Below, piece after piece: positions 46,498 through 64,000 of a DNA stretch of 64,000 nucleotides. The notes beneath the pieces were generated by a model that was not told the origin of the DNA, made no database searches, and saw only the letters and a list, made by a program, of their open reading frames with translations. The translations under genes and the position numbers were made by a program. How positions within the stretch are numbered: the stretch's first letter is position 1; each line of letters begins with the position of its first letter. The stretch is from Mycobacteriales bacterium (GTDB lineage: Bacteria > Actinomycetota > Actinomycetes > JADGOV01), in contig JBBSIN010000001.1 of the NCBI GenBank assembly GCA_038232055.1, positions 15,633 through 79,632 on the forward strand, read 5' to 3'.

Positions 46498-46658
46498 CTG
46501 AGTAAGTCCAGGTCACAGCGTTGCAGCGTTGCGCTCCGGTCACCGAGAGCCGCTCGCTTCTACCGGATCTTCTACCGGATGACGCGAGACGAGCCGGTAT
46601 GAAGCAGTAGAGAACTAGACGGAGCCCCCGCTCCGCTGTCTCGCAGGCCCCGAGCGAA

Positions 46659-48607
46659 ATGCAAGTGCGCATACGTGTGTCGCAGCCGGCGTGTACAACC
46701 GATGGCGTGCCTTGGGAGCCCACACCCGAGCAGCAGGCCATCATCGAACACGATTTGGGTCGTCACGCGCGCGTGCTCGCCGGGCCCGGCACGGGCAAGA
46801 GCGCCACCGTCATCAGGATGATGCTCCGAGCGGCCGAGCAGCTCGGTCGCCGAGGCAAGCTCCTCACGTTCACGCGGGCGGCCACAAACGAGCTCCGCGA
46901 GAAGGTCGCAGAGCATCCAGAGCACCTGGCGACGCCGAGCACGGTGCACTCGTTCTCGATCGCAACCCTTCTCGCCAACGAAGGAACCAGCGGCCTGCCG
47001 GAGCCGATTCGGCTTGCCGACGATTGGGAGTGGTCGGAGCTGATCCGCCAGCACCTCAAGGTCTTGGTGGACTGCGACGTCCGAATGATCGACCGGGCGC
47101 GGGCAGAGATGGCGTCGAACTGGGAGTCCCTCGAGCCAGCCGAAGACCCAGACCTGCCCGAGGACGTGCGCAACCGATTCGCCGGGATCTGGGAGCACCA
47201 CCGTCGGGTCTTCGGCTACGCGTTGCTCGCCGAGCTGCCGTTTCGACTTCTTCGCGCGCTCGAAGACCATCCCGATCTCAACATCGGGGACTGGGAGTAC
47301 CTGGTCGTGGACGAGTACCAGGACCTCAACCAGTGCGATCTGTCTGTCCTGAGGCAGATCACCCACCGCGGCCGAGTCCTGGTGGCCACGGGCGACGACG
47401 ACCAGTCGATCTACTCGTTCAGGCGGGCGCACCCAATCGGCATCCGGCGCTTCGTTACCGACGACTATCCGACGGCGGCTGATCTCACGCTCACGATCAG
47501 CCAGCGATGCGCAACACAAGCGCTCGCATGGGCTCGACACGTCATCGAAGGGCTACCCGGGAGACCGCCACGGCCGGCCCTGAACCCCGCGCCGCATTGC
47601 GTGGAGGGCGTGGCCCGCTACCTTTGCTTCCCGAGCTGGCCACGGGAAGCGGACGGAGTGGCGCGCCTCGCCAAGTGGCTCATCGACAACCAGGGATCGC
47701 CCCCGAAGACATCGCGGTGATGTTCCGAAGCAACTTCAACAACGCTTGGTCGACGCCGTTGACGGAGCGACTGGAGCACTACGGCGTGCCAGTCATCAAC
47801 GCCGGAGCGGTCGCCGAGATGCTTGCCGATCCCGAGAATCGGCGATTGCTCGCCCTGGCACGACTCGTCGTTAACCGCGCGGACTCCCTGGCGTGGTGGA
47901 CACTTCTTCACCTAACACCGGGCGTCGGGCCCGTGGTCCGTGACCACTTCTACGACGGCGCCGAGCAGCACGGGCGCACCTTCGCGGGCCAACTCCTCAC
48001 CGAGCACGCGGATGACTTCCAGGGCCTCGGCGGAGCTTCGGCAACTCGGGTTCGCACCACCGTCAACGCGGCCATGGCGGTGACCGAAGCGGTCGACATC
48101 GAGGGAGCTGACCTTGGCGACGCGGGGTGGGGAGAGTGGCTGGTCGGCAATGCTGACGTGTTCGGCGGATGCAACGAGGACTTCGCCGAGCTCTTGCGGG
48201 ATCTTGATGGCTTGGTCGACAGGACGGAAGGTCTCGGGCGATTTCTCGGTCAGATCCAGCCCGTCGGCACGGACCTTCGCTCCGGTCGAGCCGCGGGCGC
48301 GGTCCGCCTCATGACTATGGCGAGCTCAAAGGGGCTCACTGTGAAGGCGGCGATCATCGTGGGCGTCGAGGAAGGCGTTGTGCCGCTCGCTGACCGCGAT
48401 CCCGGTGAAGAACGTCGCCTTCTCTACGTCGCGATGACCCGTGCCACTGACAACCTCTACGCAACTTGGTCGGGCCAGCGCACCGGCCCCACCGCTCGAA
48501 CCGGGGCTCCCCGTGTCGGCGCCGGACGCAATCGATCGCCCCTGCTTACGCATGGGCCGGTCCAGTCTGAGCACGGCAACGCCTACCTGGATGCCCTCGG
48601 CGCTTAG
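46659..48607 (+). pseudogene. UvrD/Rep-like SF1 helicase, frameshifted at a C5 run (~47700-47704)
   Basis: Frame A carries the Walker A (AGPGTGKSAT) and the LVVDEYQDLN motif. Frame B continues with GIAPEDIAVMFRSN and a UvrD_C block (...VGVEEGVVPL...LLYVAMTRA). The switch sits at GGGATCGCCCCCGAAG. Confidence 0.6.
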
Positions 48608-48650
48608 ACCCTCGGAAGGTCAGCGGACTGCGGGTTGACCGGCCCGTACA

Positions 48651-49583
48651 TCAGCAGCTGGCCGCTTGGTCCCCCGCCCGGCCTCTCAGGAGCCTCCAGA
48701 TCGGATTCGTGACGCTTCCAAAGACGTAGCGCTGCGCCTTCAGGAAGTTGAGGTTCTGGAAGCACTCGAGCGACGGCGTGCCATCGGCGTTTCGGAACCA
48801 CCCGTCCACGCCGCCGCGACTCGCCGTGGTCGTGCCGCCTCTGCCCGATTGGAGAATCAACACGTGCGAGTCATCGACAGGCACGTCGGCGAAGACGCTG
48901 ACTCGCCCGAACCGGTCGCGCTCGGCCATGGCCTTGACGGGCGTGTCGCTGGTGATCAGTTCGTCTCGGTCGAAATCCAACAGGGTCCACGCGAAGTCGT
49001 TGAGGAGTTCGGCGGTGTGTTGGCGGAGCGCGAGGACGACGCCGCCACCGACGATGCCTCTCGGCTCGCTACCGCCCAAGCGTGGTCCCCGAATGAGGTC
49101 GATCTGTTCGCGCGTGAGCGCTTGAACCTCGTCGTCCGTGAGTTCGGCGCGGACCCGGTCCAGAGTGGACGAGACGAAGCGCCGGAGGGCGTCGCCATGG
49201 CTCGGCACGCGCAACTGCTGGGCTGCCACGAACGCAGCAACGTCCTCGCGTCGCTCGTCAGTGAGCGCATCGACCCCTTGGGTGGCGAGAAGACGGAAGG
49301 CCGGCGCAGCGCAACTCTCGATGTTGGACAGAAGCCGTTCGACTGCTGTCCGGGCGAGGATCGGGTGGTCAAGGTCGTAGAGCCCCTCGGCGTAGGCGAC
49401 GTCCTTCGGCCTTGCCGTGACGTACTCGCCGGTCGTCTTGTCGAACACCCCGATCTGGCGCTTCGAGCCGAACTGGCGCAGGTACCACTGTGGAACGAAG
49501 TGATGCTTGCGCGGCTCCTGAATGACCGGGGCTTGAGGACGCTCTCCCGGTTGTGAGCGCCGTGCGGAGCGATCAGTGCTCAC
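48651..49583 (-). CDS. DUF4238-like protein (paralogue 1)
   Basis: Conserved N-terminal HHFVPQWYLRQF motif. The GTG at 49583 is the only in-frame start before the motif and overlaps the upstream stop (GTGA). The Arg-rich 5' extension in the track ORF is rejected. Confidence 0.5.
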   Translation of the reverse strand: MSTDRSARRSQPGERPQAPVIQEPRKHHFVPQWYLRQFGSKRQIGVFDKTTGEYVTARPKDVAYAEGLYDLDHPILARTAVERLLSNIESCAAPAFRLLATQGVDALTDERREDVAAFVAAQQLRVPSHGDALRRFVSSTLDRVRAELTDDEVQALTREQIDLIRGPRLGGSEPRGIVGGGVVLALRQHTAELLNDFAWTLLDFDRDELITSDTPVKAMAERDRFGRVSVFADVPVDDSHVLILQSGRGGTTTASRGGVDGWFRNADGTPSLECFQNLNFLKAQRYVFGSVTNPIWRLLRGRAGDQAASC

Positions 49584-50563
49584 GCGGGCTGACGACCTTG
49601 CTGCCGAACGACCCGCTTCTGCACACGAATCTCGTCGCCCTCGGCCAGGGCACCGAGCGTCTCGACGCCCCACCTCGGCCGCTCGAGGAGGTCTCCGATC
49701 TCGATCGGCGGGTCGTCGGGGTGCTGGAAGATCCATCGGTGAGCGCCGCTTGCGACGAAGCGATTGATGATCTCGGCCCGCTTGGGCTTGGCATCTACGA
49801 CCCGTTCGTCTCCGGAGAGGAGCAGGGCGATCGCGCGTTGCCTGTCGATCGGCATGTAGATGGCATCTGCGCTCGCAATGCCGAGAGGGTGCGTCTCGAG
49901 GTCTCGATCTGGGCGGACCCATAGCGCGACGGGCTGGTCGCTGACGAGGAGGGCAGGCTCGTCGAATCGCAGTAGGCGGACCCGGCGACGGAAGTAGAGG
50001 TCGGGATGGATGCCGTTGAGTGCAAGCAGACCCATCTGCTGCACCGCCGCCGACTGCGAGGGCACGACCTTCCAGTCCGAGGTCAGGAGTTGCTCACGCC
50101 ATGCTGCGACCGCCGCGTCATCGAATGCCCGTCCGTCCTTCTTGAGTTGAGGCCGCAGGCGTTCCGTCGTCAGCCGGGGCCGTAGCTCCTCCTTCGCCAT
50201 CAGGGTGGCGAGCTCGGAGATCTCCTCGCGAAACGACCATCCACGAACTGCCTGAAAGGCAACGAAGAGCATCAGGTCGAACCGATCCTGGTCGGTCAGG
50301 TTGAGTTCGTCCCGTGCGAACCTATCGAACAACCGCGAGGCTCGACCCTCGAAGTCCGCCAGCGAGATCTCGATCTGATTGCTGGGAGCAAGGTGGCTGA
50401 AGGCGGGATCAATGTCGACGTCGTAGAAGCCGGCCTCTCGGCACGCGCGCGTGACCGTCATCGGGATGCGAACTCCGCCGGCGCGCGGAGTGGCCAGCAG
50501 GCGCTCGCGCTCGCCGGCGAACCGACGGAGCAGCATCTGCGGGACGATGTGATCGCGGGCCAT
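49580..50563 (-). CDS. DUF4238-like protein (paralogue 2)
   Basis: N-terminus MARDHIVPQMLLRRFA. 327 aa. Translationally coupled to paralogue 1. Confidence 0.55.
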   Translation of the reverse strand: MARDHIVPQMLLRRFAGERERLLATPRAGGVRIPMTVTRACREAGFYDVDIDPAFSHLAPSNQIEISLADFEGRASRLFDRFARDELNLTDQDRFDLMLFVAFQAVRGWSFREEISELATLMAKEELRPRLTTERLRPQLKKDGRAFDDAAVAAWREQLLTSDWKVVPSQSAAVQQMGLLALNGIHPDLYFRRRVRLLRFDEPALLVSDQPVALWVRPDRDLETHPLGIASADAIYMPIDRQRAIALLLSGDERVVDAKPKRAEIINRFVASGAHRWIFQHPDDPPIEIGDLLERPRWGVETLGALAEGDEIRVQKRVVRQQGRQPA

Positions 50564-50636: not shown

Positions 50637-51845
50637 TCAGGCCGGACCCGGAGCTGAAGCGCCTCGACCGGGGTCGTCGTTAGGTGCCGCCATCAGCCTC
50701 GAGAACACCGCTGCGGCTTCGGCCTGCATCCCGGGGAGCACCCAGCCGTAGACGTCGAGGGTGAAGCTCGCCGTCGCGTGGCCGAGCCGCTCACTCACGA
50801 CCTTGATCGGCACGCCGGCCTTGAGCAGCAGCGTCGCGTGGGTGTGGCGGACGTCGTGGAAGCGGACCCTGGGCAGCCCGCTGCGGGCGACGATGCGCTC
50901 GAACGTGGAGCTGAGTAGTTCGGGGTGCGTGAGCGTGCCATCAGCGCGGGCGAAGACGAGGCCGTGGTCGTCGTAGCCGGCGCCGAGCAGAAGGCGCTCT
51001 TCGGCCTGCTTGCGACGCCACCCCTGCAGCGCGCGCACAACGTCGTCGTTGACGTCGATGGTGCGCCTCCCGTGCGAGGTCTTCACGTCCGTGAGCCGAA
51101 CGTCGTAGTTGACCACCACAGCGTTCTGCCGAACGTGGATGAGTTTGGCGTCGAGGTCGACGTCGGCCCAGCGCAGCCCGGCCACCTCGCCGCGTCGCAT
51201 GCCGGTGTGCGCGGCGAGCACGAACGCCGGCGCCAGGCGCACGCCGTCGAGGGAGGCCAGGAAGGTCTGGAGCTGCGCGCTCGTCCACACATGCATCTCG
51301 CCTTCGCGCTTCGTGCTGGTGCTCCGCTTCGGCGGGTCGGCGAGGGACGCCGGGTTCCGGTTGAGCGCTCCCTTGCGCACCGCGTCACCGAGCGCCTTGC
51401 GCAGGATGCGGTGCACATAGCGAACGCTGCCTGAGCTCAGCCCCGGTCCGTCGCCGCTCTTGTTGCGGCGCCCGGACTCGAGCAGCCGGCCGTAGAGCGC
51501 GTCGAGATCCTCCGGGGCGAGTCGGCCGAGCGGCACCTTGCCGAGCGTCGGCAGGACGTGGAGCCGGATGTTGCTCTCGTAAGAGTGGAACGTCGTCGCC
51601 TTGAGCTGGCTGCGCTGCGCGGGTAACCACCGCTCGGTGAGGTACTCACCGAGGGTGACCTTGTCGGGAGCGCGGTACTCGCCGTCGTTGTGGCGCTTGA
51701 CCAGGTCGGTGACGAGCTTGTCGGCGTCGGCCTTGCGGGTCCCCGCCGGGTACCAGCGGCGACGCTCCTTGCCGGTGGCTGGGTCGACGCCTTCGTAGAT
51801 GACGGCGTAGTAGCGGTTGCCCTTCTTCGCTGTGTAGCCGCGCAC
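50637..51845 (-). CDS. int: Tyrosine site-specific integrase (phage-integrase family)
   Basis: AAGGAGG 6 nt upstream of GTG 51845. N-terminal SAM-like/AP2 domain (GNRYYAVIYEG..) and a catalytic C-terminus with R...HDVRHTHATLLL...LGHATASFTLDVYGWV (R-H-R-Y). Confidence 0.85.
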   Translation of the reverse strand: MRGYTAKKGNRYYAVIYEGVDPATGKERRRWYPAGTRKADADKLVTDLVKRHNDGEYRAPDKVTLGEYLTERWLPAQRSQLKATTFHSYESNIRLHVLPTLGKVPLGRLAPEDLDALYGRLLESGRRNKSGDGPGLSSGSVRYVHRILRKALGDAVRKGALNRNPASLADPPKRSTSTKREGEMHVWTSAQLQTFLASLDGVRLAPAFVLAAHTGMRRGEVAGLRWADVDLDAKLIHVRQNAVVVNYDVRLTDVKTSHGRRTIDVNDDVVRALQGWRRKQAEERLLLGAGYDDHGLVFARADGTLTHPELLSSTFERIVARSGLPRVRFHDVRHTHATLLLKAGVPIKVVSERLGHATASFTLDVYGWVLPGMQAEAAAVFSRLMAAPNDDPGRGASAPGPA

Positions 51846-51862
51846 CTGCGGCCTCCTTAGCG

Positions 51863-52612
51863 TCAGCGCTTGTCGCGCGTCTGCTTGCGGGGAGCGTCCG
51901 CTCCCGATCCGGCTCGTGCCGGCTCGTCCGCCGTGCCGGCTCGTGCCGCCTTGTCCGCCGACCGCTTGCCTGGCGGCTTTGCGAAGTCGCTGTCGTTGGT
52001 GTGCTCGGCCAGGAACCCGCGGATGCCGACCTGGCGGAGGTGGTCGACCCAGCGACCGAGTTCGTCGACGGCGGTGTCGAGGCTGTCGGCGTGCTGGTCG
52101 ACCAGCGCCAGCAGGAGCTCCTTGCGGCGGTCCCTGTAGTTCCACCGCTTCACGTGTGAGGCGATGCCGGTGACCTTCTCCGCGGCCTCGTCGGCGTCGG
52201 AGGGATCGACGATGCCGTGCTCCCGCAGCCGCTCGTAGACCGGCGGGAGCATCTCGGGGGAGCCCATCAGCCACATGTAGAGCTCGTTGGACTGGCTGTT
52301 GGTGCCGCGCAGGAACCGCCGCTCGCCCGGTGGCGGGAGCAAGAACCAGATGATCGGCAGGTCGAAGACCATGGCGAACACGAGCAGCTCGTGGGCGTCG
52401 AACTCCCGCCGACGGTCGCCGTCCCAAGCCCGCTCAATCGATGAGACGCCGGCCTGCGTCATGCGCTGGCCCATGTACGGCTCGAGCTCGGCCGCGAACT
52501 GGTCCTGGGTCCATCCCCGCAGCTCGCGGGCGGCACGCACGTTGTAGGCGACGATCTGGTTGAGGTCGACCTCGGGACGCGGGGGCGGCGTGTTCTTGGA
52601 CCGTCGTGCCAC
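51863..52612 (-). CDS. XRE-family HTH transcriptional regulator with an uncharacterised C-terminal domain
   Basis: HTH QIVAYNVRAARELRGWTQDQFAAEL...VSSIERA. Start set at the in-frame GTG. Confidence 0.6.
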   Translation of the reverse strand: MARRSKNTPPPRPEVDLNQIVAYNVRAARELRGWTQDQFAAELEPYMGQRMTQAGVSSIERAWDGDRRREFDAHELLVFAMVFDLPIIWFLLPPPGERRFLRGTNSQSNELYMWLMGSPEMLPPVYERLREHGIVDPSDADEAAEKVTGIASHVKRWNYRDRRKELLLALVDQHADSLDTAVDELGRWVDHLRQVGIRGFLAEHTNDSDFAKPPGKRSADKAARAGTADEPARAGSGADAPRKQTRDKR

Positions 52613-52752
52613 GCTTCTGACTCTACACGGTCTACCGCTTGTGTCGCCACTAGCCAGACATCGTGGATGCGGGTACAGTCCACGCGCCGTTCTCCGAGCG
52701 GAGAGCACGAGCCGGAGGTTGTTCCGTGGCAGGACGCAGATCGCTACCGCTG

Positions 52753-53139
52753 ATGACGGTCAGCGTGGTGGAGGCCGCAGACCTCCTGGGCGTCGGCCGC
52801 ACGAAGGCGTACGACATGACCCGCGAGTGGCGTGCGAACGGCGGCGAATCAGGGCTGCCGGTCATCGACTGCAGCAACACCCTGCGGGTCCCCCTCTACC
52901 CGCTCGCCGAGATGCTCGGCGTCGAGGTGTCCCACCTCGTGGCGGTGCTGCGCGACGCGACCGCAGCCGAACCAGCGGCGACGGCTGAACCCGCAGTCTC
53001 GGCCGAGCCTCCAACGCCGGCCGCACCGTCGACCCTCGAGCCCGTCCCGACCGCGACGCCGAAGGCCGCGCGCAACCGGCGCAAGCCCGCCATCCCGAGC
53101 AACCAGCTCGACCTCTTCGAGCACCCAACCGCGAGCTGA
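52753..53139 (+). CDS. Excisionase/MerR-like HTH DNA-binding protein with a Pro/Ala-rich tail
   Basis: MTVSVVEAADLLGVGRTKAYDMTREW. Divergent from the integrase-regulator pair. Confidence 0.5.
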   Translation: MTVSVVEAADLLGVGRTKAYDMTREWRANGGESGLPVIDCSNTLRVPLYPLAEMLGVEVSHLVAVLRDATAAEPAATAEPAVSAEPPTPAAPSTLEPVPTATPKAARNRRKPAIPSNQLDLFEHPTAS

Positions 53140-53220
53140 CGCCGTGACCGACCACCTCTCCCACCCGGACGACCCACTGCCAAACAGACAAGTGCCCGCA
53201 AGCGGGAACGTGAGCGCGCC

Positions 53221-56170: not shown

Positions 56171-56222
56171 CGACGCGAGGCCGGTCGTTTCACGGCTGCC
56201 GCCGGGGGGCAGGCCGCTCGCC

Positions 56223-59200
56223 CTACCGCGCTGACGCGGTGAAGTCCTCCAGCGTGGCGAAGATGGTTTCGAGGTCGGCCTCGACGAAGATGGCTTCAGG
56301 TCCCTGAGGTGCAACCCCGTCGTACGGCGTTTCGTACACGCGACCCGGTTCGACCATTCCACGCTGAGTGAGCTCGTTGATGATCAGGTTCACAAACTCG
56401 ATCTGATTCTTGCTGTAGCGCTTGTCGTCGAGGAAGTCCGCAAACGCCGCCTTAGCTGCCGCCCGGTCCAGCCCGACGAGTGACCTTGCGAAGAGACCGA
56501 AGCTCCCCGTCCGCTTCGCCGCCTCGGCGAACGTTTCGTCGTCTCCGATCCCGGCCGCAATCAGGATCCGCTGCAGGTCCGCGATGTCCTGCGCCGTCAG
56601 CGGCGCGCCGGAGCGGACCTTCGCTACCGCTGCTTCGGCAAGGTGCTCCTTGAGAAAATGCTCCGCCTTCTTGCGGAACTGCAGGAACTCGGTACTGCCG
56701 GCCGCCGAGCCGGCACCTGGCAGCACGATCTCGCCGGCTTCGCCGATCTCGTCGACGAAGTCGGAGTAGATGACCTTCCGCTTCAAGCGCTCGATCAACG
56801 GCACGAGCAGCCGCAGCCTCTTGCGCACCTCTTCGAGCATCGGGTAGCTGACGTCCGTCCACCACTCGTCGGTCTGCACGTCCTGAATGAGCTCGAGGTG
56901 CGCTGCGATAGCAGGGATGACCTGCTGGTCTTCGAGCGCGCTTGCGATCTGCATGACCTTGCGTCGCTCGCCCTCGAACGGCCGGCCCTGCAGGAGCGCG
57001 AGCTGTGCGCTCAGGAGGAGGACGTCGAACCGCTTGGCTTCCTCATGCTCAGGGTCGAGCTGCGCCGGCAGCCTTGCGACCCGATCCGCCAGCGCAGCAA
57101 GGTCTCCGACCGACAGGCTCTCCCACGGCTCCTCTTCGCGGAAGCGCTCGACGAGCTGGAGGTGTGGCCGAACGAGGAAGTTGTCCGGGTTCATCGACGC
57201 GATGGCGTCGCGCAACGTTGCCGCGACGGTCGCGCGTTCGTCACCGTGCGAGTGGATCTCATCGAAGGTCTGGATGAGTTCGAGCCGTGACTTGAAGATC
57301 TGCTCGCTCAAGGGCACCGAGTCAGACGGCTCTGCCGGCGGGAGCTCTTGGCTGAAGTACTCGAGGTTCTGACAGAAGTCGAAGACCTTGAACTCGGTCT
57401 TGTCGTCGCCGGGCCCGAAGAGGTCCGGTCGCAGCCGCGTGCCTCGGCCGATCATCTGCCAGAACTTAGTCTTCGAGCGGAGGAGCTTGAAGAACACGAG
57501 GTTGACGATCTCGGGCACGTCGATTCCGGTGTCGAGCATGTCGACCGAGATGGCGATGTGCGCCGCCTTCTCCGGCGTCGAGAAGTCGTCGATCAGGCTC
57601 TGTGCGTACTTAACGCTGTGGGTGACGACGCGGGCGAAGTTGCCGTTGTCGAGATGCGGGTAGTTGGCGACGAACCGCTCGTAGATGTAGTCAGCGTGCC
57701 GCTGGTTCTTGGCGAAGATGATCGTCTTGCCGAGCCGATCCCCACCGGCGACGCGGATGCCCTGGGTCATGAGGTGCTCGAGCACCTTGTCGACCGTGTC
57801 CTCGTTGAAGAGGAACTTGTTCAGGGCGGCAGGGTCCACCTCGTCGGGAGGATCGAGCGGGTTGCCCTCCTCGTCCTCGCCCCACTCGAACTCGTCCCAG
57901 TCGTCCTTCTCGTCGTCCGACAGGTTCTTGTACTTGATGCCCTCGCGGATGAACTTGACCGGCACCGACACACCTTTCGGCGGGACGAGGTAGCCGTCGC
58001 CGATGGCCTCCTCCAATGAGTACGCATCCGTGGGAACACCTGTCTCGAGATCGAAGAGGTCGTAGGTGTTCTTGTCGACCTCGTCCTTGGGAGTCGCCGT
58101 CAGCCCGACGAGCAGCGAGTCGAAGTACTCGAAGATGCCGCGGTACTTCCGGTACACCGAGCGGTGCGCCTCGTCGATCACGACGAGGTCGAAGTGGCCC
58201 ACCCCGAATCGACGCGTTCCGTCGTTGCGGTACTCGTCGATCTTGCCGACCATCGTCTGATAGGTGGACACGTAGACCCTGCCGTCCTCGCCGCCCTCCG
58301 ATACGAGGTTCACGGGCGCCGACTGCGGCAGGTGCTCCTTGAAGGCGTTCACGGCCTGCTTGACGAGCGCAGTCCGATCGGCGAGGAACAGGACGCGCTT
58401 CGCCACGTTGGCGCGCATCAACAGGTCAGTGAGAGCGATGACGGTCCGGGTCTTGCCAGCGCCGGTTGCCATGACGAGGAGCGCCTTTCGCTGCTTGTCG
58501 ACCTCGAATCGCTCGGAGATGGCTCGGATGGCTCGCTCCTGGTAGAAGCGCTCAACGATCGCGCCGTTCGTGTCGAGCGTCACGAGCGAACGCCGCGTCG
58601 TCCGCCGCTGCATCGCGAGCTGCAGCTCGTCCTTTGTCAGGAACCCCTGGACCGACCGCGGCGGGTACTGCGTGTCGTCCCACAGCCAGTGCTCGTAGCC
58701 GTTCGAGTAGAAGATCACCGGCCGCTGGCCGGTCGCCGCTTCGAGACAGTCCGCGTAGAGCTTCGCCTGCTGCTGGCCCGTCTGGGGCGACACCAGCGTC
58801 TTCTTCGCTTCGACGATCGCGTGTGGCAGCCCGTCGTCGCCCCACAGCACATAGTCGACGTAGCCGACGCCGGAGCCGGAGGGCATGCCGTGCACCTCGA
58901 ACTCCCGGTCGCGGCCCTCTGTCAACGTCCAACCCGCCTCGGCGAGGAGCGCGTCGATCTTGAACCGACGAGTCTCGAGTTCGGACCAGTCGTACGACTC
59001 GATGGGGATCGCTTCGGCGGCCTTCTTTGCTGCCGCGACCTCAGCGATCAACGCGGCGCGCTCAGCCTCGAGCTGCTCGACCGTCTTGGCCAGCTCCGCG
59101 ACACGCGCCCGAGCGAGCGCAGTGTCCTCGGCCTCTCGGGCAAGACGCTCTTCAAGTTCGAGCCGCTCGGTGAGCGATGCCGGCTCGTGCCGCTCGAACG

Positions 59201-59630
59201 ACGCCAGCTTCTTCGGATCGAACTTGAGGCTGAGGTCGGGTTTCGATGAGCGCCCGTAGGTGTAGGCGAGCCAGAAGCAGAACTGGAACAGCGCCGAGAT
59301 GACCTCGACTGCCTCGAGCTGTGTTGGTGGCTTCGCCTCGTGGACCGCGCGATTGCCGGCGCGCTGGATCTTCTTGGCGACGTTGTAGACGAGGCCGCTC
59401 GCCAGCGCCTTGAAAGCCGGCTCGTTCAGGTAAGCGTTGAGCTGGTCCTCGTACGGCTGCGACAGCGACCGGTCGTAGCGGTAGACCCACTTGACGCCTG
59501 ACTCAAGCGCCTTGCGAGCGTAAATCATCGCCGGTCCCGGATCGGAGAGCGCGTGGCTCTCGGCCCACGATGCCGTGGCGAACTCGTCGCGGAACTCCGC
59601 TTCGAGGAAGAAGAACTGTGACTCGCTCAC
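56223..59630 (-). CDS. hsdR: Type I restriction enzyme R subunit
   Basis: 1135 aa. Nuclease region, DEAD-box SF2 motors (MATGAGKT, VVIDEAHRS) and a C-terminal helical domain. Stop overlaps the hsdS start. Confidence 0.85.
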   Translation of the reverse strand: MSESQFFFLEAEFRDEFATASWAESHALSDPGPAMIYARKALESGVKWVYRYDRSLSQPYEDQLNAYLNEPAFKALASGLVYNVAKKIQRAGNRAVHEAKPPTQLEAVEVISALFQFCFWLAYTYGRSSKPDLSLKFDPKKLASFERHEPASLTERLELEERLAREAEDTALARARVAELAKTVEQLEAERAALIAEVAAAKKAAEAIPIESYDWSELETRRFKIDALLAEAGWTLTEGRDREFEVHGMPSGSGVGYVDYVLWGDDGLPHAIVEAKKTLVSPQTGQQQAKLYADCLEAATGQRPVIFYSNGYEHWLWDDTQYPPRSVQGFLTKDELQLAMQRRTTRRSLVTLDTNGAIVERFYQERAIRAISERFEVDKQRKALLVMATGAGKTRTVIALTDLLMRANVAKRVLFLADRTALVKQAVNAFKEHLPQSAPVNLVSEGGEDGRVYVSTYQTMVGKIDEYRNDGTRRFGVGHFDLVVIDEAHRSVYRKYRGIFEYFDSLLVGLTATPKDEVDKNTYDLFDLETGVPTDAYSLEEAIGDGYLVPPKGVSVPVKFIREGIKYKNLSDDEKDDWDEFEWGEDEEGNPLDPPDEVDPAALNKFLFNEDTVDKVLEHLMTQGIRVAGGDRLGKTIIFAKNQRHADYIYERFVANYPHLDNGNFARVVTHSVKYAQSLIDDFSTPEKAAHIAISVDMLDTGIDVPEIVNLVFFKLLRSKTKFWQMIGRGTRLRPDLFGPGDDKTEFKVFDFCQNLEYFSQELPPAEPSDSVPLSEQIFKSRLELIQTFDEIHSHGDERATVAATLRDAIASMNPDNFLVRPHLQLVERFREEEPWESLSVGDLAALADRVARLPAQLDPEHEEAKRFDVLLLSAQLALLQGRPFEGERRKVMQIASALEDQQVIPAIAAHLELIQDVQTDEWWTDVSYPMLEEVRKRLRLLVPLIERLKRKVIYSDFVDEIGEAGEIVLPGAGSAAGSTEFLQFRKKAEHFLKEHLAEAAVAKVRSGAPLTAQDIADLQRILIAAGIGDDETFAEAAKRTGSFGLFARSLVGLDRAAAKAAFADFLDDKRYSKNQIEFVNLIINELTQRGMVEPGRVYETPYDGVAPQGPEAIFVEADLETIFATLEDFTASAR

Positions 59631-60226
59631 AGCTCGCCTCTGAAAGCGCGCTGCTGAAGCGCTCCCAGCAGCGTGTTGAGCGTCTCGAGACTACGGCGAC
59701 GCTCGGTTCGAAGATCGACGACCGAGTCGAGAACGGCGGCGATTCTGTGTTGCTCAGTGAGGGCCGGCGCCGGTATCGGAAACTGGCGCAACTGCGAGAG
59801 GTTGATCCGAGGGCGCGTCTGTCCGTGCGCCAATGACGCTGCGTGCGATTGCGCTCGGCCCGAGTTCAAGTAGTGGACGAGGTAGCGCGCTGAGGCTTGT
59901 TCGGGATTACATCGCAGCTGGATGTAGTCCGCCTTGTTCAGCGCGAGCGGTATGAAGTCGGGCAGAACAGCCGCCCGCAAGATCGGATCGCCGAGCGTCG
60001 CGATGAGGACATCTCCAGGACGGCACTCATGTTTGCTGAGCTTCGCGAAGTGATCCGTCGAGATGAACGCGCGATCGCGATCGTCAAACTCTCCGACCGC
60101 GATGTTCTGCAGGCGAACCACCCGAACTCCGCCCTCGACGTAGTGCTCGCTCTTGAGATTCGAACCAAACGGCCCATCCTGCAGCTTCAATGCCAGATCG
60201 CCGAGGGGCACCATGGGAACGCTCAC
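59627..60226 (-). CDS. hsdS: Type I RM specificity subunit, half-size (single target-recognition domain)
   Basis: 199 aa with one TRD plus one conserved coiled-coil region (...LTEQHRIAAVLDSVDL...). 4-nt overlaps with both hsdM (upstream) and hsdR (downstream). Confidence 0.7.
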   Translation of the reverse strand: MSVPMVPLGDLALKLQDGPFGSNLKSEHYVEGGVRVVRLQNIAVGEFDDRDRAFISTDHFAKLSKHECRPGDVLIATLGDPILRAAVLPDFIPLALNKADYIQLRCNPEQASARYLVHYLNSGRAQSHAASLAHGQTRPRINLSQLRQFPIPAPALTEQHRIAAVLDSVVDLRTERRRSLETLNTLLGALQQRAFRGEL

Positions 60227-61767
60227 TTGAGCATGGCCTTCAGCTCGTCCAAGCCCTTCTGGATTCGCTCCTCGATCGCTGTCAGCTCATCGATGAGTTC
60301 TAGAGGCTGCGGGAACTCGACCTCGCGGTACGGCGTCTCCTGGTAGCGGTTGATCGAGAGGTCGTAGCCAGCTGATGCCACTTCGGACTTGGGAACACAG
60401 AACGATTGATCGTCGCGTCTCCGGCCGCGTTCGTTCCCATCTCGCTTCCGCCACCGTGCGAGCACGTCGGGAAGGTTGTTCTTCGCACGCTCGTCCTCAG
60501 TGAGGACTGCGGTGGCGCCGAGCTTGGACTCTGGGAGGAGCGGGGTTCGCTTGTCGTCGAGGCTTCGGCCATCGGCGTGCAGGTCGTAGAACCAGATGTG
60601 GTCGGTGCCTCCCGAGTTCGTCTTGGTGAACAGCAGGATCGCCGTCGAGACGCCCGCGTACGGCTTGAACACGCCAGACGGCAGCGAGACGATCCCATCG
60701 AGCTTCTGATCCTCGACGAGCATCCGCCGGAGTGCCTTGTGAGCGTTCGTAGATCCGAAGAGAACGCCATCCGGGACGATGACAGCCGCGCGCCCGCCGG
60801 GCTTGAGAAGTCGTAGAAACAGGGCGAGAAAGAGCAGCTCTGTCTTCTTCGTCTTCACGACTTGGAGCAGATCCTTCGCGGTCGACTCATAGTCGAGGCT
60901 GCCGGCGAAAGGCGGGTTGGCCAGGACGAGGCTGTAGGCCTCGATGTCGTTCGCATGGTCCTGGGCGAGGCTGTCGCGGTAGGCGATCGCGGGGTTCTCG
61001 ATGCCATGCAGCTGCATGTTCATCGACCCGATGCGGAGCATCGTGTTGTCGAAGTCATAGCCATGGAACATCGACTCGTGGAAGTGCTGGGCATGAGTCG
61101 CGTCGGCCAGCACCGTCGGGTGGTGGCGGCGGAGGTACTCGCCAGCACCGACCAGGAAGCCAGCGGTACCGACGGCTGGATCGCAGATGGTGTCCTTGGG
61201 AGTCGGCGCCATCATCTCGACCATCAGCTCGATGATGTGGCGCGGCGTTCGGAACTGGCCGTTCTGCCCTGCCGTGGCGATCTTGGCGAGCATGTACTCG
61301 TAGACGTCGCCCTTGGTGTCGCGGTCCTCCATCGGGATGGCGTCGAGACCATCGACCGCCTTCTGGAGGAGTCCGGGTGTCGGGATGGTGAACCGCGCAC
61401 CACGCATGTGCTTCCCATGCGTCGTCGTCGCCGTGCGCTCCTGGAGGAACGGGAAGACGTAGTTCTCGACGACGTCGTACATCTCGTTGGCCGGCATGTT
61501 CTTCAGCCGATCCCAGCGCAGGTCCGCGTACGGTCGACCCGTTGTCTGCCCCTCGGGCGTGAACGTGCCATCCGGGAAGATCGGGCGCTCGATGGCAGCG
61601 CCCGTGCGGTTCGCCTTCCGTTCGGCTCGGGTCTCTGCCTCGTCGAGGCCCTTGATGAACAGCAGGAGCGTCAGCTGTTCCATGACTTCGAGCGGATTAG
61701 AGATTCCGCCAGACCAGAAGTCGCTCCAGACCGCGTCGATCCTCGTCTTGAGCTCGCCGGTAATCAT
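60223..61767 (-). CDS. hsdM: Type I RM N6-adenine DNA methyltransferase subunit
   Basis: N-terminal HsdM_N, an N6_Mtase domain with LANPPFAGS (NPPF motif) and a SAM-binding (F/Y)xDPAxGTAGFL. ATG 61767. Confidence 0.85.
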   Translation of the reverse strand: MITGELKTRIDAVWSDFWSGGISNPLEVMEQLTLLLFIKGLDEAETRAERKANRTGAAIERPIFPDGTFTPEGQTTGRPYADLRWDRLKNMPANEMYDVVENYVFPFLQERTATTTHGKHMRGARFTIPTPGLLQKAVDGLDAIPMEDRDTKGDVYEYMLAKIATAGQNGQFRTPRHIIELMVEMMAPTPKDTICDPAVGTAGFLVGAGEYLRRHHPTVLADATHAQHFHESMFHGYDFDNTMLRIGSMNMQLHGIENPAIAYRDSLAQDHANDIEAYSLVLANPPFAGSLDYESTAKDLLQVVKTKKTELLFLALFLRLLKPGGRAAVIVPDGVLFGSTNAHKALRRMLVEDQKLDGIVSLPSGVFKPYAGVSTAILLFTKTNSGGTDHIWFYDLHADGRSLDDKRTPLLPESKLGATAVLTEDERAKNNLPDVLARWRKRDGNERGRRRDDQSFCVPKSEVASAGYDLSINRYQETPYREVEFPQPLELIDELTAIEERIQKGLDELKAMLK

Positions 61768-61777
61768 CGAACGTCGC

Positions 61778-62029
61778 CTACCGCGTACGCCCACCGGCCG
61801 CGCGCCACCGCTCCATCTCGGCTCGGCAGTTCGAACCCGCGGGACCGAAGCCATGCTCGACGAGAAACTCCCCGACGCTGCCGTACCGGAGGTTGATTAC
61901 AGCAGCCTCGGCGAACTTGTCGTGACCCGGGACGAAGAAGTTTCCAGTTGTCGTCTCAGCGCCACACCCGCACCAGCAGTCACCCGTCGGCAGCAGCCGC
62001 CCGGCGCGGTCCCTGATCGTCTCAGCCAT
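61778..62029 (-). CDS. Small Cys-rich protein (83 aa), hypothetical
   Basis: GGAGG 6 nt upstream of ATG 62029. MAETIRDRAGRLLPTGDCWCGCGAE...GHDKF...C... Sits 10 nt upstream of hsdM. Confidence 0.4.
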   Translation of the reverse strand: MAETIRDRAGRLLPTGDCWCGCGAETTTGNFFVPGHDKFAEAAVINLRYGSVGEFLVEHGFGPAGSNCRAEMERWRAAGGRTR

Positions 62030-62155: not shown

Positions 62156-62827
62156 CTACCCGAGCTGGAGGCCGTGGAGCGCGAGCGCGGCGCGAAGGTC
62201 CTCGTCATCGCCCCCGAACTCGGTGACGTCGATGACGCCTGGAGCCGCTGGCTCGAAGATCGTCCAGTTCTGCAGATCGTCGCCGTGCTTCGAGAGGTAC
62301 GCGAGTCCGTTCCAACGTCTCGCGCCGCCGGACGTCTGCCCGAACACGTAACGCGAGACGTGCTGCGTGAACGCGCGCGGCGCGGTGAGTCGGAGAGTTG
62401 CAGCATCCAGATCGTGCAGACCGTGGTGGACGACCCGCGCAGCCAGCGCGGTCCGTAGTTCCGCGAGCGACTCGTGGTGTCCGACATCGGCGTAGTCGCC
62501 GACGAGGGTGGCCCGTCCGACGCGGCGCTGGTCGACCCAGGCTGCTGGGACGATCCCGGGTGCCGGCGGCTCCTCGTCGCCTTCCTCGCCGACGATGGCT
62601 TGCAGCTCCGCGACGACCTCGATGTCCGGGCGGTAGTAGGCGAGACACTCGACGAAGGTCGCGACGCGTTGCGTCGAGGCGTACAGGACTCTGTAGATGC
62701 CTTGCGGGTCGTCGTAGCGGTTGCCGAACGTGCCGTCAGCCTCGGCGTAGGCCCAGTCCGGCCACGCCCACGGGTCTGGCCGGCGCCCGAGACGGAAGAC
62801 CTCCGCGGGTACGTCGGCCTGTCTCAC
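62156..62827 (-). CDS. RES-domain toxin
   Basis: ...GNRYDDPQGIYRVLYASTQRVATFVECLA... (R...E...S-type core). Lies downstream of the antitoxin and overlaps it by 4 nt. Confidence 0.65.
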   Translation of the reverse strand: MRQADVPAEVFRLGRRPDPWAWPDWAYAEADGTFGNRYDDPQGIYRVLYASTQRVATFVECLAYYRPDIEVVAELQAIVGEEGDEEPPAPGIVPAAWVDQRRVGRATLVGDYADVGHHESLAELRTALAARVVHHGLHDLDAATLRLTAPRAFTQHVSRYVFGQTSGGARRWNGLAYLSKHGDDLQNWTIFEPAAPGVIDVTEFGGDDEDLRAALALHGLQLG

Positions 62828-63237
62828 CCGCCGACGAGGAAGGCTCGCGCCGCAGCGAGAACGAGCAGACCGACCTCGTCGAGATCACCGTCGCGGAGGA
62901 GTCGAGCCGGCGAGCGGTCCTCGAGGTGAGGATTCAACCCCTGGAACCATGCCTGGACGACGCGTGGCGCGTCGTGCTCGCTTAACAAGAGCGCTACCTG
63001 GAGCGCGAAGCGGAGACGGTCCTCGACCTCGCCCGACTTCGCCTCGCGAGTCCCGTCGGCCCACTGGTGGACCGCTCGCGTCTCGCGAACTCCGCCGATG
63101 TATGCAACGAGCCGAGGGGTGAGCAGATCTCTCAGTTCCTTCGCCGCTGTCGCGAAGGGCACCCGCATCGCGTGCTCATGGGCCTGCAACTCCGGCCTGC
63201 TCATCGTGGCTCCGGCCATGTCACCACCATACAGCAC
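62824..63237 (-). CDS. Xre-like antitoxin of the RES-Xre system (DUF2384/MbcA-ParS family)
   Basis: 137 aa, ...LVAYIGGVRETRAVHQWADG...WFQGLNPHL..., characteristic of MbcA/ParS antitoxins. Confidence 0.6.
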   Translation of the reverse strand: MLYGGDMAGATMSRPELQAHEHAMRVPFATAAKELRDLLTPRLVAYIGGVRETRAVHQWADGTREAKSGEVEDRLRFALQVALLLSEHDAPRVVQAWFQGLNPHLEDRSPARLLRDGDLDEVGLLVLAAARAFLVGG

Positions 63238-63436
63238 CCGAAATCACAGTACAATCACATTCCGAACCACAGCCTAACGCTCGGACCCGCACGGTCATCC
63301 AGCGTGCGACCCACCCAGGGGAACGCGCCGCCGCCTCCCGGCCACTCCAGGCGAAGCCGTCCGGAAGGGGCGACAGCACCGCCCACGAGGTGGCACGTGT
63401 GCGAATACTGGTCGGGTTATGCAGGACGAGACCTCA

Positions 63437-63466
63437 CGGTGGTCTGCGGCGCGGTGGTCTGCGGCG
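63437..63466. repeat. Perfect 15-bp tandem duplication (GGTGGTCTGCGGCGC x2)
   Basis: Seen directly in the sequence, in the AT-richer promoter region upstream of the terminal partial gene. Confidence 0.6.
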
Positions 63467-63507
63467 CGCCGACCCCGGCACGACACGAGACCCCGAGCGC
63501 GCGTCTA

Positions 63508-64000
63508 ATGCCCCCGGACAGACTGAACTCGGGCTTCGATGCAATTCGCCCCTGGCGAGGCTCGACCGCTCGCGGATTCGAGGAACTCTGCTACCAGCTG
63601 TTCAAGTCGGACGCTCCGGAGGGCGTACGAGCGATTCGCACGGGCAACCCGGACGGCGGCGTTGAGTGGTACGCGACCCTTGCCGACGGCGCAGAGTGGG
63701 GGTGGCAAGCCAAGCACGTACACGACGTCGATTCCCTTCTTGACGGCATGACCGAGAGCGTCAGGGCCGTCGTGCGTGATCGGCCGAAGGTCACCAAGCT
63801 GACGTTTCTCATCTCGTCCAACCTCGACACTGCCGTCGGACGTGGTCGCCGCAAGTCCCAGCGCCAGAAGTACGACGACAAGGTGGAGTTCTGGCACACG
63901 TCGATCGCGGGTGCGGCCGACATCGACTTCGAGCTGGTCCAAGAGAGCGACATCCTCAACCGCTTGGCGCTTCCCGAACACGAGGGAAGGCGGTGGTTCT
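63508..64000 (+). CDS. Hypothetical protein, 3' partial; possible N-terminal Mrr-like PD-(D/E)xK nuclease motif
   Basis: Open frame with no stop before the window end, so it is absent from the ORF track. MPPDRLNSGFDAIRPWRGSTARGFEELCYQLF...NPDGGVEWYATLADGAEWGWQAKHV (D..E.. then QAK). Confidence 0.45.
   Translation, partial: MPPDRLNSGFDAIRPWRGSTARGFEELCYQLFKSDAPEGVRAIRTGNPDGGVEWYATLADGAEWGWQAKHVHDVDSLLDGMTESVRAVVRDRPKVTKLTFLISSNLDTAVGRGRRKSQRQKYDDKVEFWHTSIAGAADIDFELVQESDILNRLALPEHEGRRWF

What the first reader, a model, noticed from the sequence alone, without database searches (positions are those of the whole stretch)
46498..64000. Decaying integrative mobilisable element at tRNA-Arg with defence cargo; right boundary beyond the window
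The island starts exactly at the 3' end of tRNA-Arg(ACG). It carries an intact tyrosine integrase with a strong SD, but its relaxase-helicase and a UvrD-like helicase are frameshifted. The RM and toxin-antitoxin cargo are intact. This pattern fits an element whose mobility functions are eroding while its defence genes are kept. I could not find the attR direct repeat of the tRNA 3' end within the window.
Basis: partly seen in the sequence, partly recalled or inferred. Interest (0 to 1): 0.55.

Follow-up and report, generated by a model that had tools for sequence, protein, structure and literature searches.

The report
Defence-loaded mobilisable island at tRNA-Arg
This is a roughly 22 kb mobile genomic island inserted into a tRNA-Arg gene of an uncultured high-GC actinobacterium; it carries several anti-phage systems and has recently lost its own DNA-transfer enzyme, which makes it a well-documented but ordinary example of a known kind of element.

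Summary
tRNA-Arg(ACG) ends at 46498, and GC falls from about 72% to 62-70% from there to the window end. The island is one integrative mobilisable element of about 21.9 kb. attL is the last 45 nt of the tRNA (46454-46498). attR lies about 4.3 kb beyond the window (window-equivalent 68340 onward), seen on an independent assembly contig identical to the window. Paired TTCTACCGGA repeats sit just inside both ends, as in a related element at the same tRNA in another genome. The conserved core is integrase, a 249-aa HTH protein, an excisionase-like protein and a TrwC-type relaxase-helicase. Variable defence cargo lies on both sides: two DUF4238 genes, a type I RM system, an MbcA/MbcT-like toxin-antitoxin pair and a full-length Avs2-like gene. 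The relaxase has two 1-nt deletions and the UvrD-like helicase has one; relatives have intact copies. Substitution patterns suggest the relaxase was broken recently. The integrase, excisionase-like gene and both att sites look intact, so only transfer has been lost, not integration or excision. HsdS is half-size but may still work. This is a new member of a known kind, of modest interest.

The parts
46425..46498 (+). tRNA-Arg(ACG), the integration target. The gene is intact.
   Evidence: ARAGORN; Rfam tRNA, 69.3 bits.
46454..46498 (+). attL core: 45 nt running from the anticodon loop to the 3' end of the tRNA. Its first 26 nt are repeated at window-equivalent 68340-68365 (attR, outside the window).
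   Evidence: the Logan contig L001 is 100% identical to the window over 2706 nt and ends inside the repeat; the related element has the full 45-nt repeat 22.1 kb apart.
46558..46579 (+). Two TTCTACCGGA repeats 59 nt inside attL, candidate arm-type integrase binding sites. A twin pair lies at 68204-68225, 114 nt inside attR.
   Evidence: the same motif occurs with nearly the same spacing (59 nt; 113-114 nt) at both ends of the related element. Similarity of the reconstructed attP (about 270 bp) stops just outside the arms.
46707..48607 (+). UvrD-like SF1 helicase pseudogene in hotspot 1. One 1-nt deletion at 47696 (GGAATC has become GGATC).
   Evidence: Pfam UvrD-helicase in the N piece and UvrD_C in the C piece; junction; intact 632-642 aa homologues up to 94% identical; DNA alignment and tblastn in two frames.
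48651..49583 (-). DUF4238 paralogue b (310 aa). Its GTG start overlaps the stop of paralogue a (GTGA).
   Evidence: Pfam DUF4238, E=2e-28; start analysis; 27% identity to paralogue a.
49580..50563 (-). DUF4238 paralogue a (327 aa). DUF4238 is a validated single-gene anti-phage family.
   Evidence: Pfam DUF4238, E=6e-33, full profile. Rousset et al. 2022, PMC9122126: a DUF4238 protein protects against T7.
50637..51845 (-). Tyrosine integrase, 402 aa, intact.
   Evidence: Pfam Phage_integrase and SAM_3; GTG start behind AAGGAGG; 96% identical to the integrase of the related element; catalytic residues present; dN/dS 0.08-0.10.
51863..52612 (-). XRE-type HTH protein, 249 aa, upstream of the integrase in the same orientation. 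It is the most conserved gene of the element and a presumed regulator.
   Evidence: Weak HTH_3 hit; 97.6% identical to the homologue in the related element; dN/dS 0.05-0.08; recurs next to integrases in the wider family; nothing recognisable beyond the HTH.
52613..52725 (.). Conserved divergent intergenic region between the HTH-int and xis-relaxase gene pairs. Presumed promoter/operator region; oriT has not been located.
   Evidence: 85% column identity across three elements. The function is inferred.
52726..53139 (+). Excisionase-like HTH_17 protein, 137 aa from GTG 52726.
   Evidence: Pfam HTH_17 and TIGR01764 'excise', both below threshold; conserved GGAGG-GTG start; 88% identical to the 130-aa homologue.
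53221..56170 (+). TrwC-type relaxase fused to an SF1 helicase; a pseudogene. 1-nt deletions at 53541 and 54530, and an in-frame 3-nt deletion at 55768.
   Evidence: Pfam TrwC and AAA_30 on separate ORFs; collinear with aa 1-984 of the intact homologue in three frames; exact lesions, reproduced in the Logan contig L004 with 0 mismatches in 5408 nt.
56223..59630 (-). hsdR, the type I restriction subunit, 1135 aa, intact.
   Evidence: Pfam ResIII, HSDR_N and EcoEI_R_C; PADLOC REase_I, E=1e-170; 95% identical over the full length to the homologue.
59627..60226 (-). hsdS, half-size specificity subunit (199 aa, one target-recognition domain plus one conserved helix). The ORF is intact.
   Evidence: It matches only half of the S-subunit profiles. 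Relatives have 390-398 aa. Homodimeric half-S subunits are known to work (PMC3874165).
60223..61767 (-). hsdM, the type I methyltransferase, 514 aa, intact.
   Evidence: Pfam N6_Mtase and HsdM_N; PADLOC MTase_I, E=7e-184, full profile; 85% DNA identity to the 514-aa homologue.
61778..62029 (-). 83-aa ORF of unknown function in hotspot 2.
   Evidence: Called as a gene on L001. No family hit.
62156..62827 (-). RES-domain toxin, MbcT-like, 223 aa.
   Evidence: 20 of 23 homologues (at least 52% identical) hit Pfam RES; Arg37, Glu60 and Ser158/179 are invariant. The model (pLDDT 86) has MbcT, 6FKG, as its best fold hit (probability 1.00), followed by other RES toxins.
62824..63204 (-). MbcA/NatR/Xre-type antitoxin, 126 aa (possibly 131-137 aa from an upstream start). 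It overlaps the toxin gene by 4 nt.
   Evidence: The family profile's only PDB match is MbcA, E=0.0012. The model (pLDDT 94) has MbcA, NatR and the P. putida Xre antitoxin as its top fold hits. Weak Pfam Xre_MbcA_ParS_C hit.
63508..64000 (+). Start of an Avs2-like STAND NTPase. The full gene is 1533 aa and runs to window-equivalent 68109.
   Evidence: PADLOC Avs2 N-terminal hit in the window. The full-length protein on L001 gives PADLOC Avs2 E=2e-266 (profile 5-1454 of 1504) and NCBIfam Avs2 603 bits, below the cutoff of 1000.

Best explanation
The region is a single integrative mobilisable element (IME) of about 21.9 kb in an uncultured high-GC actinobacterium.

How it inserted. It integrated by tyrosine-integrase recombination between an attP of about 270 bp and the tRNA-Arg(ACG) gene. 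attP consists of a 45-bp core identical to the 3' part of the tRNA, flanked on each side by a pair of TTCTACCGGA arm repeats. Integration regenerated the tRNA and left attL at 46454-46498 and attR at about 68340-68384.

Layout. A four-gene core is shared by a family of such elements: the integrase and an XRE-type HTH protein on one strand, and an excisionase-like protein and a TrwC-type relaxase-helicase on the other. On both sides of this core are exchangeable slots filled mostly with anti-phage genes:
- attL to int: a broken UvrD-like helicase and two DUF4238 genes.
- After the relaxase: a type I RM system with a half-size S subunit.
- hsdM to attR: an MbcA/MbcT-like toxin-antitoxin pair and an Avs2-like gene.

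Current state. The relaxase has two recent 1-nt deletions, so this copy can no longer start its own conjugative mobilisation. It probably can still excise and reintegrate.

Shown versus inferred. Shown: gene identities, the lesions, the att repeats, and the conservation and variability among relatives. Inferred: that the arm repeats bind the integrase, that the element is excision-competent, that it depends on a helper conjugation system, that the cargo is active against phage, and that the TA pair helps retain the element.
For: Boundaries:
- tRNA.
- The attR repeat and arm repeats on contig L001, which is identical to the window.
- The same 45-nt core and arms, with nearly the same spacing, at both ends of a 22.1-kb relative at tRNA-Arg in another genome.

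Modularity:
- blastn to that relative matches only attL (86%), int to hsdR (90% over 9 kb), hsdM (85%) and attR (81%). Nothing matches in the two hotspots, hsdS or the flanking chromosome.
- Two further relatives keep the core but carry TIR genes, or a C5-methylase/Vsr/SNF2 set, in the variable slots.
- The int/HTH/xis/relaxase module recurs in 28 metagenome loci.

Lesions:
-.
- They are reproduced in a second assembly.
- No split genes were found among the core-chromosome ORF pairs examined.
- The relaxase N/S count ratio is 0.63 against 0.43-0.46 in intact lineages.

Cargo identities:
-.

Foreign composition:
-.

No conjugation-pore, coupling-protein or FtsK-like gene was found among the island ORFs scanned.
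Against: - Only the first 26 nt of the attR core are actually seen, because the contig ends there. The full 45 nt and the chromosome beyond it are inferred from the relative.
- No empty site from a close relative of the host could be obtained.
- No circular form or attP junction has been observed.
- oriT was not identified.
- The two assemblies that agree on the frameshifts probably share the same reads, so they are not biologically independent.
- The composition-based scan used as a control for assembly-wide indels did not flag the three known island lesions, so it is insensitive.
- The integrase sits about 4 kb from attL, which is less usual than an att-adjacent integrase. The three relatives share this layout.
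Confidence: 0.85

Rival explanations
1. The frameshifts are sequencing or assembly errors, and the element is a fully functional mobilisable element.
For: The source appears to be a metagenome-type assembly. The confirming Logan contigs come from one run, SRR24807094, and may share reads with the source assembly. Each lesion is a single-base deletion. The composition-based control scan was insensitive: it did not flag the known lesions.
Against: Two independent deletions hit the same 3-kb gene, while a 1533-aa, a 1135-aa and a 514-aa gene in the island are intact. No split genes were seen among the core-chromosome ORF pairs examined. The deletions are not in long homopolymers. The two assemblies show 0 mismatches over 5408 and 2706 nt.
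Confidence: 0.08
2. The region is a composite of two or more islands that accreted in tandem at the tRNA. The helicase/DUF4238 block would be the remnant of a separate element inserted between the tRNA and an older island.
For: The integrase is about 4 kb from attL. Tandem elements at this same tRNA core do exist (L104). GC differs between modules.
Against: There is no internal copy of the tRNA core at up to 3 mismatches, and no extra arm repeats, between 46.6 and 68.2 kb. Three relatives have the same layout, with a cargo block between attL and the integrase and the conserved arm repeats only at the two outer ends.
Confidence: 0.06
3. The region is ancient core chromosome or a prophage or phage satellite, not a mobilisable island.
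For: None beyond the presence of an integrase and an excisionase-like gene, which phages also have.
Against: The composition is foreign. The same backbone sits at tRNA-Arg in unrelated chromosomal contexts with different cargo. No capsid, terminase, portal or phage replication genes were found among the ORFs scanned. A conjugative relaxase is present.
Confidence: 0.02

Closest known systems
Integrative mobilisable elements (IMEs, or 'hitchers') that encode a relaxase but no conjugation pore (reviewed in PMC11389934; surveyed for defence content in PMC10201445)
   Same: A site-specific integrase, flanking att direct repeats at a tRNA 3' end, its own relaxase, no type IV secretion or coupling protein genes, and defence genes as cargo.
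   Different: The host is an uncultured high-GC actinobacterium. The relaxase is a TrwC-type relaxase-helicase fusion. The core is a fixed four-gene module with a conserved 249-aa HTH partner of the integrase. In this copy the relaxase is a pseudogene.
Defence hotspots on mobile elements: P2/P4 hotspots (PMC9122126), Pseudomonas PAPI-1 hotspots (PMC12629846), pipolins as bimodular defence platforms (PMC11551731), and integrase-associated defence islands at tRNAs in E. coli (PMC10121019)
   Same: A conserved mobile backbone with fixed positions at which unrelated defence systems are swapped between otherwise near-identical elements.
   Different: A different backbone and phylum. Here there are variable slots on both sides of the core, plus an exchangeable RM slot.
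Actinomycete integrative and conjugative elements (AICEs such as pSAM2 and SLP1; from my own knowledge)
   Same: Actinobacterial host, tyrosine integrase plus excisionase, and integration into the 3' end of a tRNA gene with regeneration of the tRNA.
   Different: AICEs transfer double-stranded DNA with an FtsK-like TraB and carry a replication gene. Neither is present here, and a single-strand-type TrwC relaxase is present instead.
MbcT-MbcA (Rv1989c/Rv1990c) and other RES-Xre toxin-antitoxin systems (PDB 6FKG, 6GW6, 8QNL)
   Same: Gene order with the antitoxin first and a 4-nt overlap. Both predicted folds have these proteins as best matches. Arg, Glu and Ser are invariant in the toxin family.
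   Different: Sequence identity is low (10-28%). The toxin has about 40-80 extra residues, and its own sequence does not reach the Pfam RES threshold.
NgoAV and engineered half-size HsdS subunits (PMC3874165, section 'Homodimeric S subunits')
   Same: An S subunit with a single target-recognition domain, encoded between intact hsdM and hsdR.
   Different: Function here is untested. In NgoAV the S gene is fragmented, whereas here the 199-aa ORF fits cleanly between hsdM and hsdR with overlapping stop and start codons.

Membership tests
Integrative mobilisable element (IME) | Site-specific recombinase gene inside the element | tested here: met
   402-aa tyrosine integrase with the catalytic Arg, HxxR, His and Tyr.
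Integrative mobilisable element (IME) | Flanking att direct repeats that bound the element | tested here: met
   attL is 46454-46498. The first 26 nt of the same core are at 68340-68365, where the contig ends. The full 45-nt repeat is seen in the relative.
Integrative mobilisable element (IME) | Own relaxase and/or oriT, but no conjugation pore or coupling protein | tested here: inconclusive
   The TrwC-type relaxase gene is present but broken by two frameshifts. No T4SS, T4CP or FtsK-like domain occurs among the island ORFs scanned. oriT was not found. The family qualifies, with intact 984-aa relaxases in relatives, but this copy is defective.
Integrative mobilisable element (IME) | Excision and mobilisation by a helper element | not testable with these tools
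   This needs read-level junction searches or experiments.
AICE (actinomycete ICE) | FtsK/SpoIIIE-like TraB translocase and a replication initiator | tested here: not met
   No such domain occurs in any island ORF scanned.
Type I restriction-modification system | hsdR, hsdM and hsdS present together as intact ORFs | tested here: met
   hsdR and hsdM match the full length of their profiles and homologues.
Type I restriction-modification system | S subunit with two target-recognition domains | tested here: not met
   The 199-aa HsdS matches only one half of the S-subunit profiles. Half-S homodimers can be functional.
DUF4238 anti-phage system | Protein with a DUF4238 domain above the Pfam threshold | tested here: met
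   Two paralogues score 114.8 and 99.9 bits against a cutoff of 27. Anti-phage activity is known only for an E. coli P2-hotspot homologue and was not tested here.
Avs2 (AVAST type 2) | Full-length match to Avs2 models, covering the STAND NTPase and the sensor region | tested here: inconclusive
   PADLOC Avs2 gives E=2e-266 over profile positions 5-1454 of 1504. NCBIfam Avs2 aligns over its full length but scores 603 bits, below the curated cutoff of 1000.
RES-Xre (MbcTA-like) toxin-antitoxin | Toxin with a RES domain and conserved Arg, Glu and Ser | tested here: met
   The protein's own sequence has no Pfam hit. However, 20 of 23 homologues hit RES, Arg37, Glu60 and Ser158/179 are invariant, and the best fold matches are MbcT and other RES toxins.
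RES-Xre (MbcTA-like) toxin-antitoxin | Cognate Xre/MbcA-type antitoxin encoded immediately upstream | tested here: met
   4-nt overlap. The profile's only PDB match is MbcA, E=0.0012. The fold hits are MbcA, NatR and the Xre antitoxin.
Gabija | GajB-like helicase together with a GajA (OLD-type ATPase/TOPRIM nuclease) | tested here: not met
   The helicase pieces hit GajB profiles, but no GajA-like gene is in the island. Intact homologues of the helicase occur alone on other elements.

The most novel reading that the evidence does not exclude
The element may represent a so-far undescribed family of actinobacterial mobilisable elements specific for tRNA-Arg(ACG). The family's four-gene core (integrase, a conserved 249-aa HTH protein, an excisionase-like protein and a TrwC relaxase-helicase) would act as a shuttle with defence-gene slots on both sides. 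If so, the unannotated genes in those slots are good candidates for new anti-phage systems. Examples are the stand-alone 632-aa UvrD-like helicase, the coupled pair of diverged DUF4238 paralogues, the 83-aa ORF, and the 1234-aa and 464-aa ORFs in relative L122. The family would also offer several stages of decay (an intact relative, a copy with a broken relaxase, and a relic with only integrase fragments) for studying how defence islands become fixed in a chromosome.
Probability: 0.4. Interest if true: 0.45.

Novelty: new member of a known kind. Interest (0 to 1): 0.3.

Why it matters
The finding adds a clearly bounded, well-annotated example of a defence-carrying mobilisable island from a poorly studied, uncultured actinobacterial lineage. 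Its att sites, candidate arm sites, a conserved four-gene core and three exchangeable cargo positions are all defined. Comparing four close relatives shows defence systems being swapped at fixed positions: DUF4238, ubiquitin-like genes, TIR genes, type I and type II RM, Avs2 and toxin-antitoxin pairs. This is the pattern used elsewhere to discover new defence genes. It also catches the loss of self-transfer at an early stage, which bears on how mobile defence islands become resident. None of this would surprise a specialist.

Tried and rejected
1. An exact DNA search of representative genomes for the window's end found nothing.
2. Look-ups of hsdM (wrong start), the antitoxin and hsdR did not reach the 84-kb NCBI source contig. 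Only Logan contigs of SRR24807094 could be read, so the sequence beyond 68365 is unavailable.
3. An empty-site comparison using the flanking MBL-fold gene failed. The best relatives are only about 60-64% identical, and none of the 25 loci examined has tRNA-Arg next to that gene.
4. I considered whether the helicase and DUF4238 genes form one system. I rejected this because intact helicase homologues occur without DUF4238, and the closest DUF4238 homologue occurs without the helicase.
5. Gabija was rejected because there is no GajA.
6. A composition signal suggested a minus-strand gene at 55.6-56.4 kb. I rejected this because the relaxase homologue aligns through that stretch at 82% identity.
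7. The repeat search inside the island found only chance-level matches apart from the arm repeats.
8. The promoter and terminator scans were uninformative.
10. A third close relative had a gene table but no DNA.
11. My composition-based frameshift scan did not flag the known island lesions, so it is insensitive. I used it only to nominate core ORF pairs for domain checks.

Full report
**Observation.** The window is a high-GC chromosome, at 0.70-0.76 GC over the first 46 kb. tRNA-Arg(ACG) lies at 46425-46498. From the tRNA's 3' end to the window end, GC falls to 0.62-0.70. All four island modules correlate with the core's tetranucleotide usage at r = 0.82-0.90, below the 0.91-0.97 seen for 5-kb core chunks.

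**Gene map.** I used GC3 frame analysis, start-codon inspection and profile searches. From left to right:
- a UvrD-like helicase in two frames (46707-48607, +);
- two DUF4238 genes (48651-49583 and 49580-50563, -), joined by a GTGA stop/start overlap and 27% identical to each other;
- a 402-aa tyrosine integrase (50637-51845, -), with a GTG start behind AAGGAGG and all catalytic residues;
- a 249-aa XRE-type HTH protein (51863-52612, -);
- an excisionase-like HTH_17 protein (52726-53139, +);
- a TrwC relaxase and AAA_30 helicase in three frames (53221-56170, +);
- hsdR (56223-59630, -), hsdS (59627-60226, -) and hsdM (60223-61767, -);
- an 83-aa ORF;
- two overlapping small genes (62156-62827 and 62824-63204, -);
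- an Avs2-like gene that starts at 63508 and runs off the window.

No conjugation-pore, coupling-protein, FtsK-like, replication or phage structural gene was seen.

**Right boundary.** No repeat of the tRNA 3' end exists in the window, even with 3 mismatches. The source is an 84,172-bp NCBI contig that I could not reach. A Logan assembly contig of run SRR24807094 (L001) is identical to the window over 2706 nt and extends it to window-equivalent 68365. It shows three things:
- the Avs2-like gene is complete (1533 aa, ending at 68109);
- the contig ends inside a perfect direct repeat of tRNA positions 46454-46479, at 68340-68365, which is what a k-mer assembly does at a repeat;
- the tandem motif TTCTACCGGA-N2-TTCTACCGGA occurs both 59 nt inside attL (46558-46579) and 114 nt inside attR (68204-68225).

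**A related element confirms the architecture.** The integrase and HsdR clusters led to a 299,648-bp metagenome contig (L002, L003). It carries the same backbone, also at a tRNA-Arg(ACG) gene and in the same orientation. There the full 45-nt core is repeated exactly, 22.1 kb apart. The same arm motif pairs sit 59 and 113 nt inside the two cores. A reconstructed attP aligns between the two elements only from one arm pair, through the core, to the other arm pair (about 270 bp), and similarity stops just outside the arms. I infer that the window's attR is the full 45-nt core at about 68340-68384. The element is then about 21.9 kb, and the arm repeats are integrase arm-type sites.

**Backbone versus cargo.** blastn between the two elements matches only four segments:
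- 46425-46586 (tRNA and attL arm, 86%);
- 50689-59686 (int to hsdR, 90% over 9 kb);
- 60342-61826 (hsdM, 85%);
- 68196-68365 (attR arm and core, 81%).

There is no similarity in 46.6-50.7 kb, in hsdS, in 61.8-68.2 kb, or in the chromosome outside the tRNA. In the relative, the first slot holds ubiquitin-like/E2/ThiF genes and an SMC-type ATPase. The last slot holds a second methyltransferase and S gene plus an HTH_17/PIN pair. A third element (gene table only) has four TIR-domain genes in the first slot. A fourth (L122) keeps int, HTH, xis-like and an intact 984-aa relaxase, but has a C5-methylase, Vsr and SNF2 helicase where the type I RM sits, and large unannotated ORFs in the first slot. 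The conserved core is therefore the four genes int, HTH, xis-like and relaxase, with exchangeable and mostly defence-related cargo on both sides. The same four-gene module recurs at lower identity in many of 28 metagenome loci recovered with the relaxase. One of these, L104, shows two elements in tandem at the same tRNA core.

**The lesions.**
- *Relaxase.* The window covers aa 1-984 of the intact 984-aa relaxase collinearly in three frames. The DNA alignment shows two 1-nt deletions, at 53541 and 54530, and an in-frame 3-nt deletion at 55768.
- *Helicase.* It has a single 1-nt deletion at 47696 (GGAATC to GGATC) relative to an intact 636-aa homologue. Intact homologues of 632-642 aa and up to 94% identity are abundant.
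- *Are they real?* A second assembly of SRR24807094 (L004) reproduces the relaxase region with 0 mismatches in 5408 nt. The core-chromosome ORF pairs I examined are separate complete genes, not split ones, although the scan that nominated them was insensitive. Long island genes of 1533, 1135 and 514 aa are intact. Two hits in one 3-kb gene fit real pseudogenisation better than random error.
- *How common?* The relaxase reads in one frame in nearly all family members that cover it, so the broken state is derived.

**Age of the decay.** I compared three sequences (window, L002, L122). Relaxase dN/dS is 0.15-0.20 in all pairs. The window-specific counts are 26.3 non-synonymous to 41.7 synonymous changes, a ratio of 0.63, against 0.46 and 0.43 in the two intact lineages. 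This is far below the ratio expected with no constraint, which I estimate at roughly 2.5-3 from the proportion of non-synonymous sites. The gene was therefore under selection for most of its branch, and the frameshifts are recent. The integrase (dN/dS 0.08-0.10) and the HTH gene (0.05-0.08) are strongly constrained. A more decayed relic exists in other samples (L005, L006). It has an attR-like junction, integrase fragments with a frameshift and an internal deletion, and an intact DUF4238 gene at 94.5% identity.

**Cargo identities.**
- *DUF4238.* This is a validated single-gene anti-phage system, giving strong protection against T7 (Rousset et al. 2022, PMC9122126). Here there are two diverged, translationally coupled paralogues.
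- *Type I RM.* hsdR and hsdM are full length. HsdS is half-size at 199 aa, against 390-398 aa in relatives. Such subunits are known to act as homodimers with palindromic specificity, with NgoAV as a natural example (PMC3874165). The system may therefore still work, but this is untested.
- *Toxin-antitoxin pair.* The two small genes gave no usable Pfam hit themselves. For the 223-aa protein, 20 of 23 homologues hit RES, Arg37, Glu60 and Ser158/179 are invariant, and its model's best fold matches are MbcT and other RES toxins. For the upstream 126-aa protein, the family profile's only PDB match is MbcA (E = 0.0012), and its model (pLDDT 94) matches MbcA, NatR and the P. putida Xre antitoxin.
- *Avs2-like protein.* It matches a PADLOC Avs2 profile end to end (E = 2e-266), but scores below NCBIfam's equivalog cutoff.
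- *UvrD-like helicase.* It hits GajB profiles, but there is no GajA. Intact homologues sit alone next to integrases on other elements. Its role is unknown.

**Mechanism.** The best-supported reading is a single IME. It integrated by tyrosine recombination into the tRNA 3' end and regenerated the tRNA. It is presumably regulated by the HTH protein and the conserved divergent intergenic region (85% identity across three elements), and excised with the help of the xis-like protein. In its intact form it would be mobilised by its TrwC-type relaxase through a helper's conjugation machinery. This copy has lost the relaxase but keeps the integration and excision parts. The toxin-antitoxin pair and the RM system may favour retention of the element. 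These last steps are inference.

**Comparison with known systems, and verdict.** Defence genes on ICEs and IMEs, and swappable defence hotspots on mobile backbones, are well documented (PMC10201445, PMC10121019, PMC9122126, PMC11551731, PMC12629846). This element is not an AICE, because it has no TraB or Rep genes. It is a new member of a known kind, probably representing an undescribed actinobacterial family.

Noticed in passing
window 21552-21663 (-): TPP riboswitch (Rfam 55.6 bits, just above the gathering score of 54.3). It lies upstream of a cytosine/purine/thiamine-type permease ORF (20195-21571) and a TENA/THI-4 ORF, so this is probably a thiamine salvage operon.
   Followed up: partly
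window 33376-34599: tRNA-Ser(GCT) at 33376-33469 sits in a local GC dip (0.67-0.68 at 32-35 kb). A PIN-domain ORF lies at 34177-34599, about 700 nt downstream. No integrase was found among the ORFs scanned there, so this could be a small islet or a toxin-antitoxin remnant.
   Followed up: partly
window 63438-63467: A perfect 15-nt tandem duplication (GGTGGTCTGCGGCGC, two copies) in the intergenic region between the antitoxin gene and the start of the Avs2-like gene.
   Followed up: no
L104 1-8200 (contig Ga0070741_10003490): Two copies of the tRNA-Arg core (at 403 and 8109) bracket a 7.7-kb element with a different integrase and a related relaxase. The family's TTCTACCGGA arm pair lies just beyond the inner core. 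This indicates tandem accretion of two elements at the same tRNA.
   Followed up: partly
L005 and L006 (Logan contigs of SRR25547171 and SRR25547172): A decayed relic of the same family. It has an attR-like junction at the contig start, integrase fragments with a frameshift and an internal deletion, and an intact DUF4238 gene 94.5% identical to the window's.
   Followed up: partly
L007-L013: The 632-aa UvrD-like helicase family is widespread (about 70% identity across many metagenome contigs). It recurs next to integrases or ubiquitin-like (Bub-type) defence genes on unrelated elements, always without a GajA partner. Whether it serves element replication or defence is unknown.
   Followed up: partly
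L122 11275-18442: In the slot between the integrase and the tRNA-side end, this relative has ORFs of 464, 88, 1234 and 205 aa with no Pfam hit on record. They are candidate uncharacterised defence genes.
   Followed up: no
window 51863-52612 (-): The 249-aa HTH protein upstream of the integrase is the most conserved gene of the element (97.6% identity, dN/dS 0.05-0.08). Only its N-terminal XRE-type HTH is recognisable, and the C-terminal two-thirds match nothing.
   Followed up: partly
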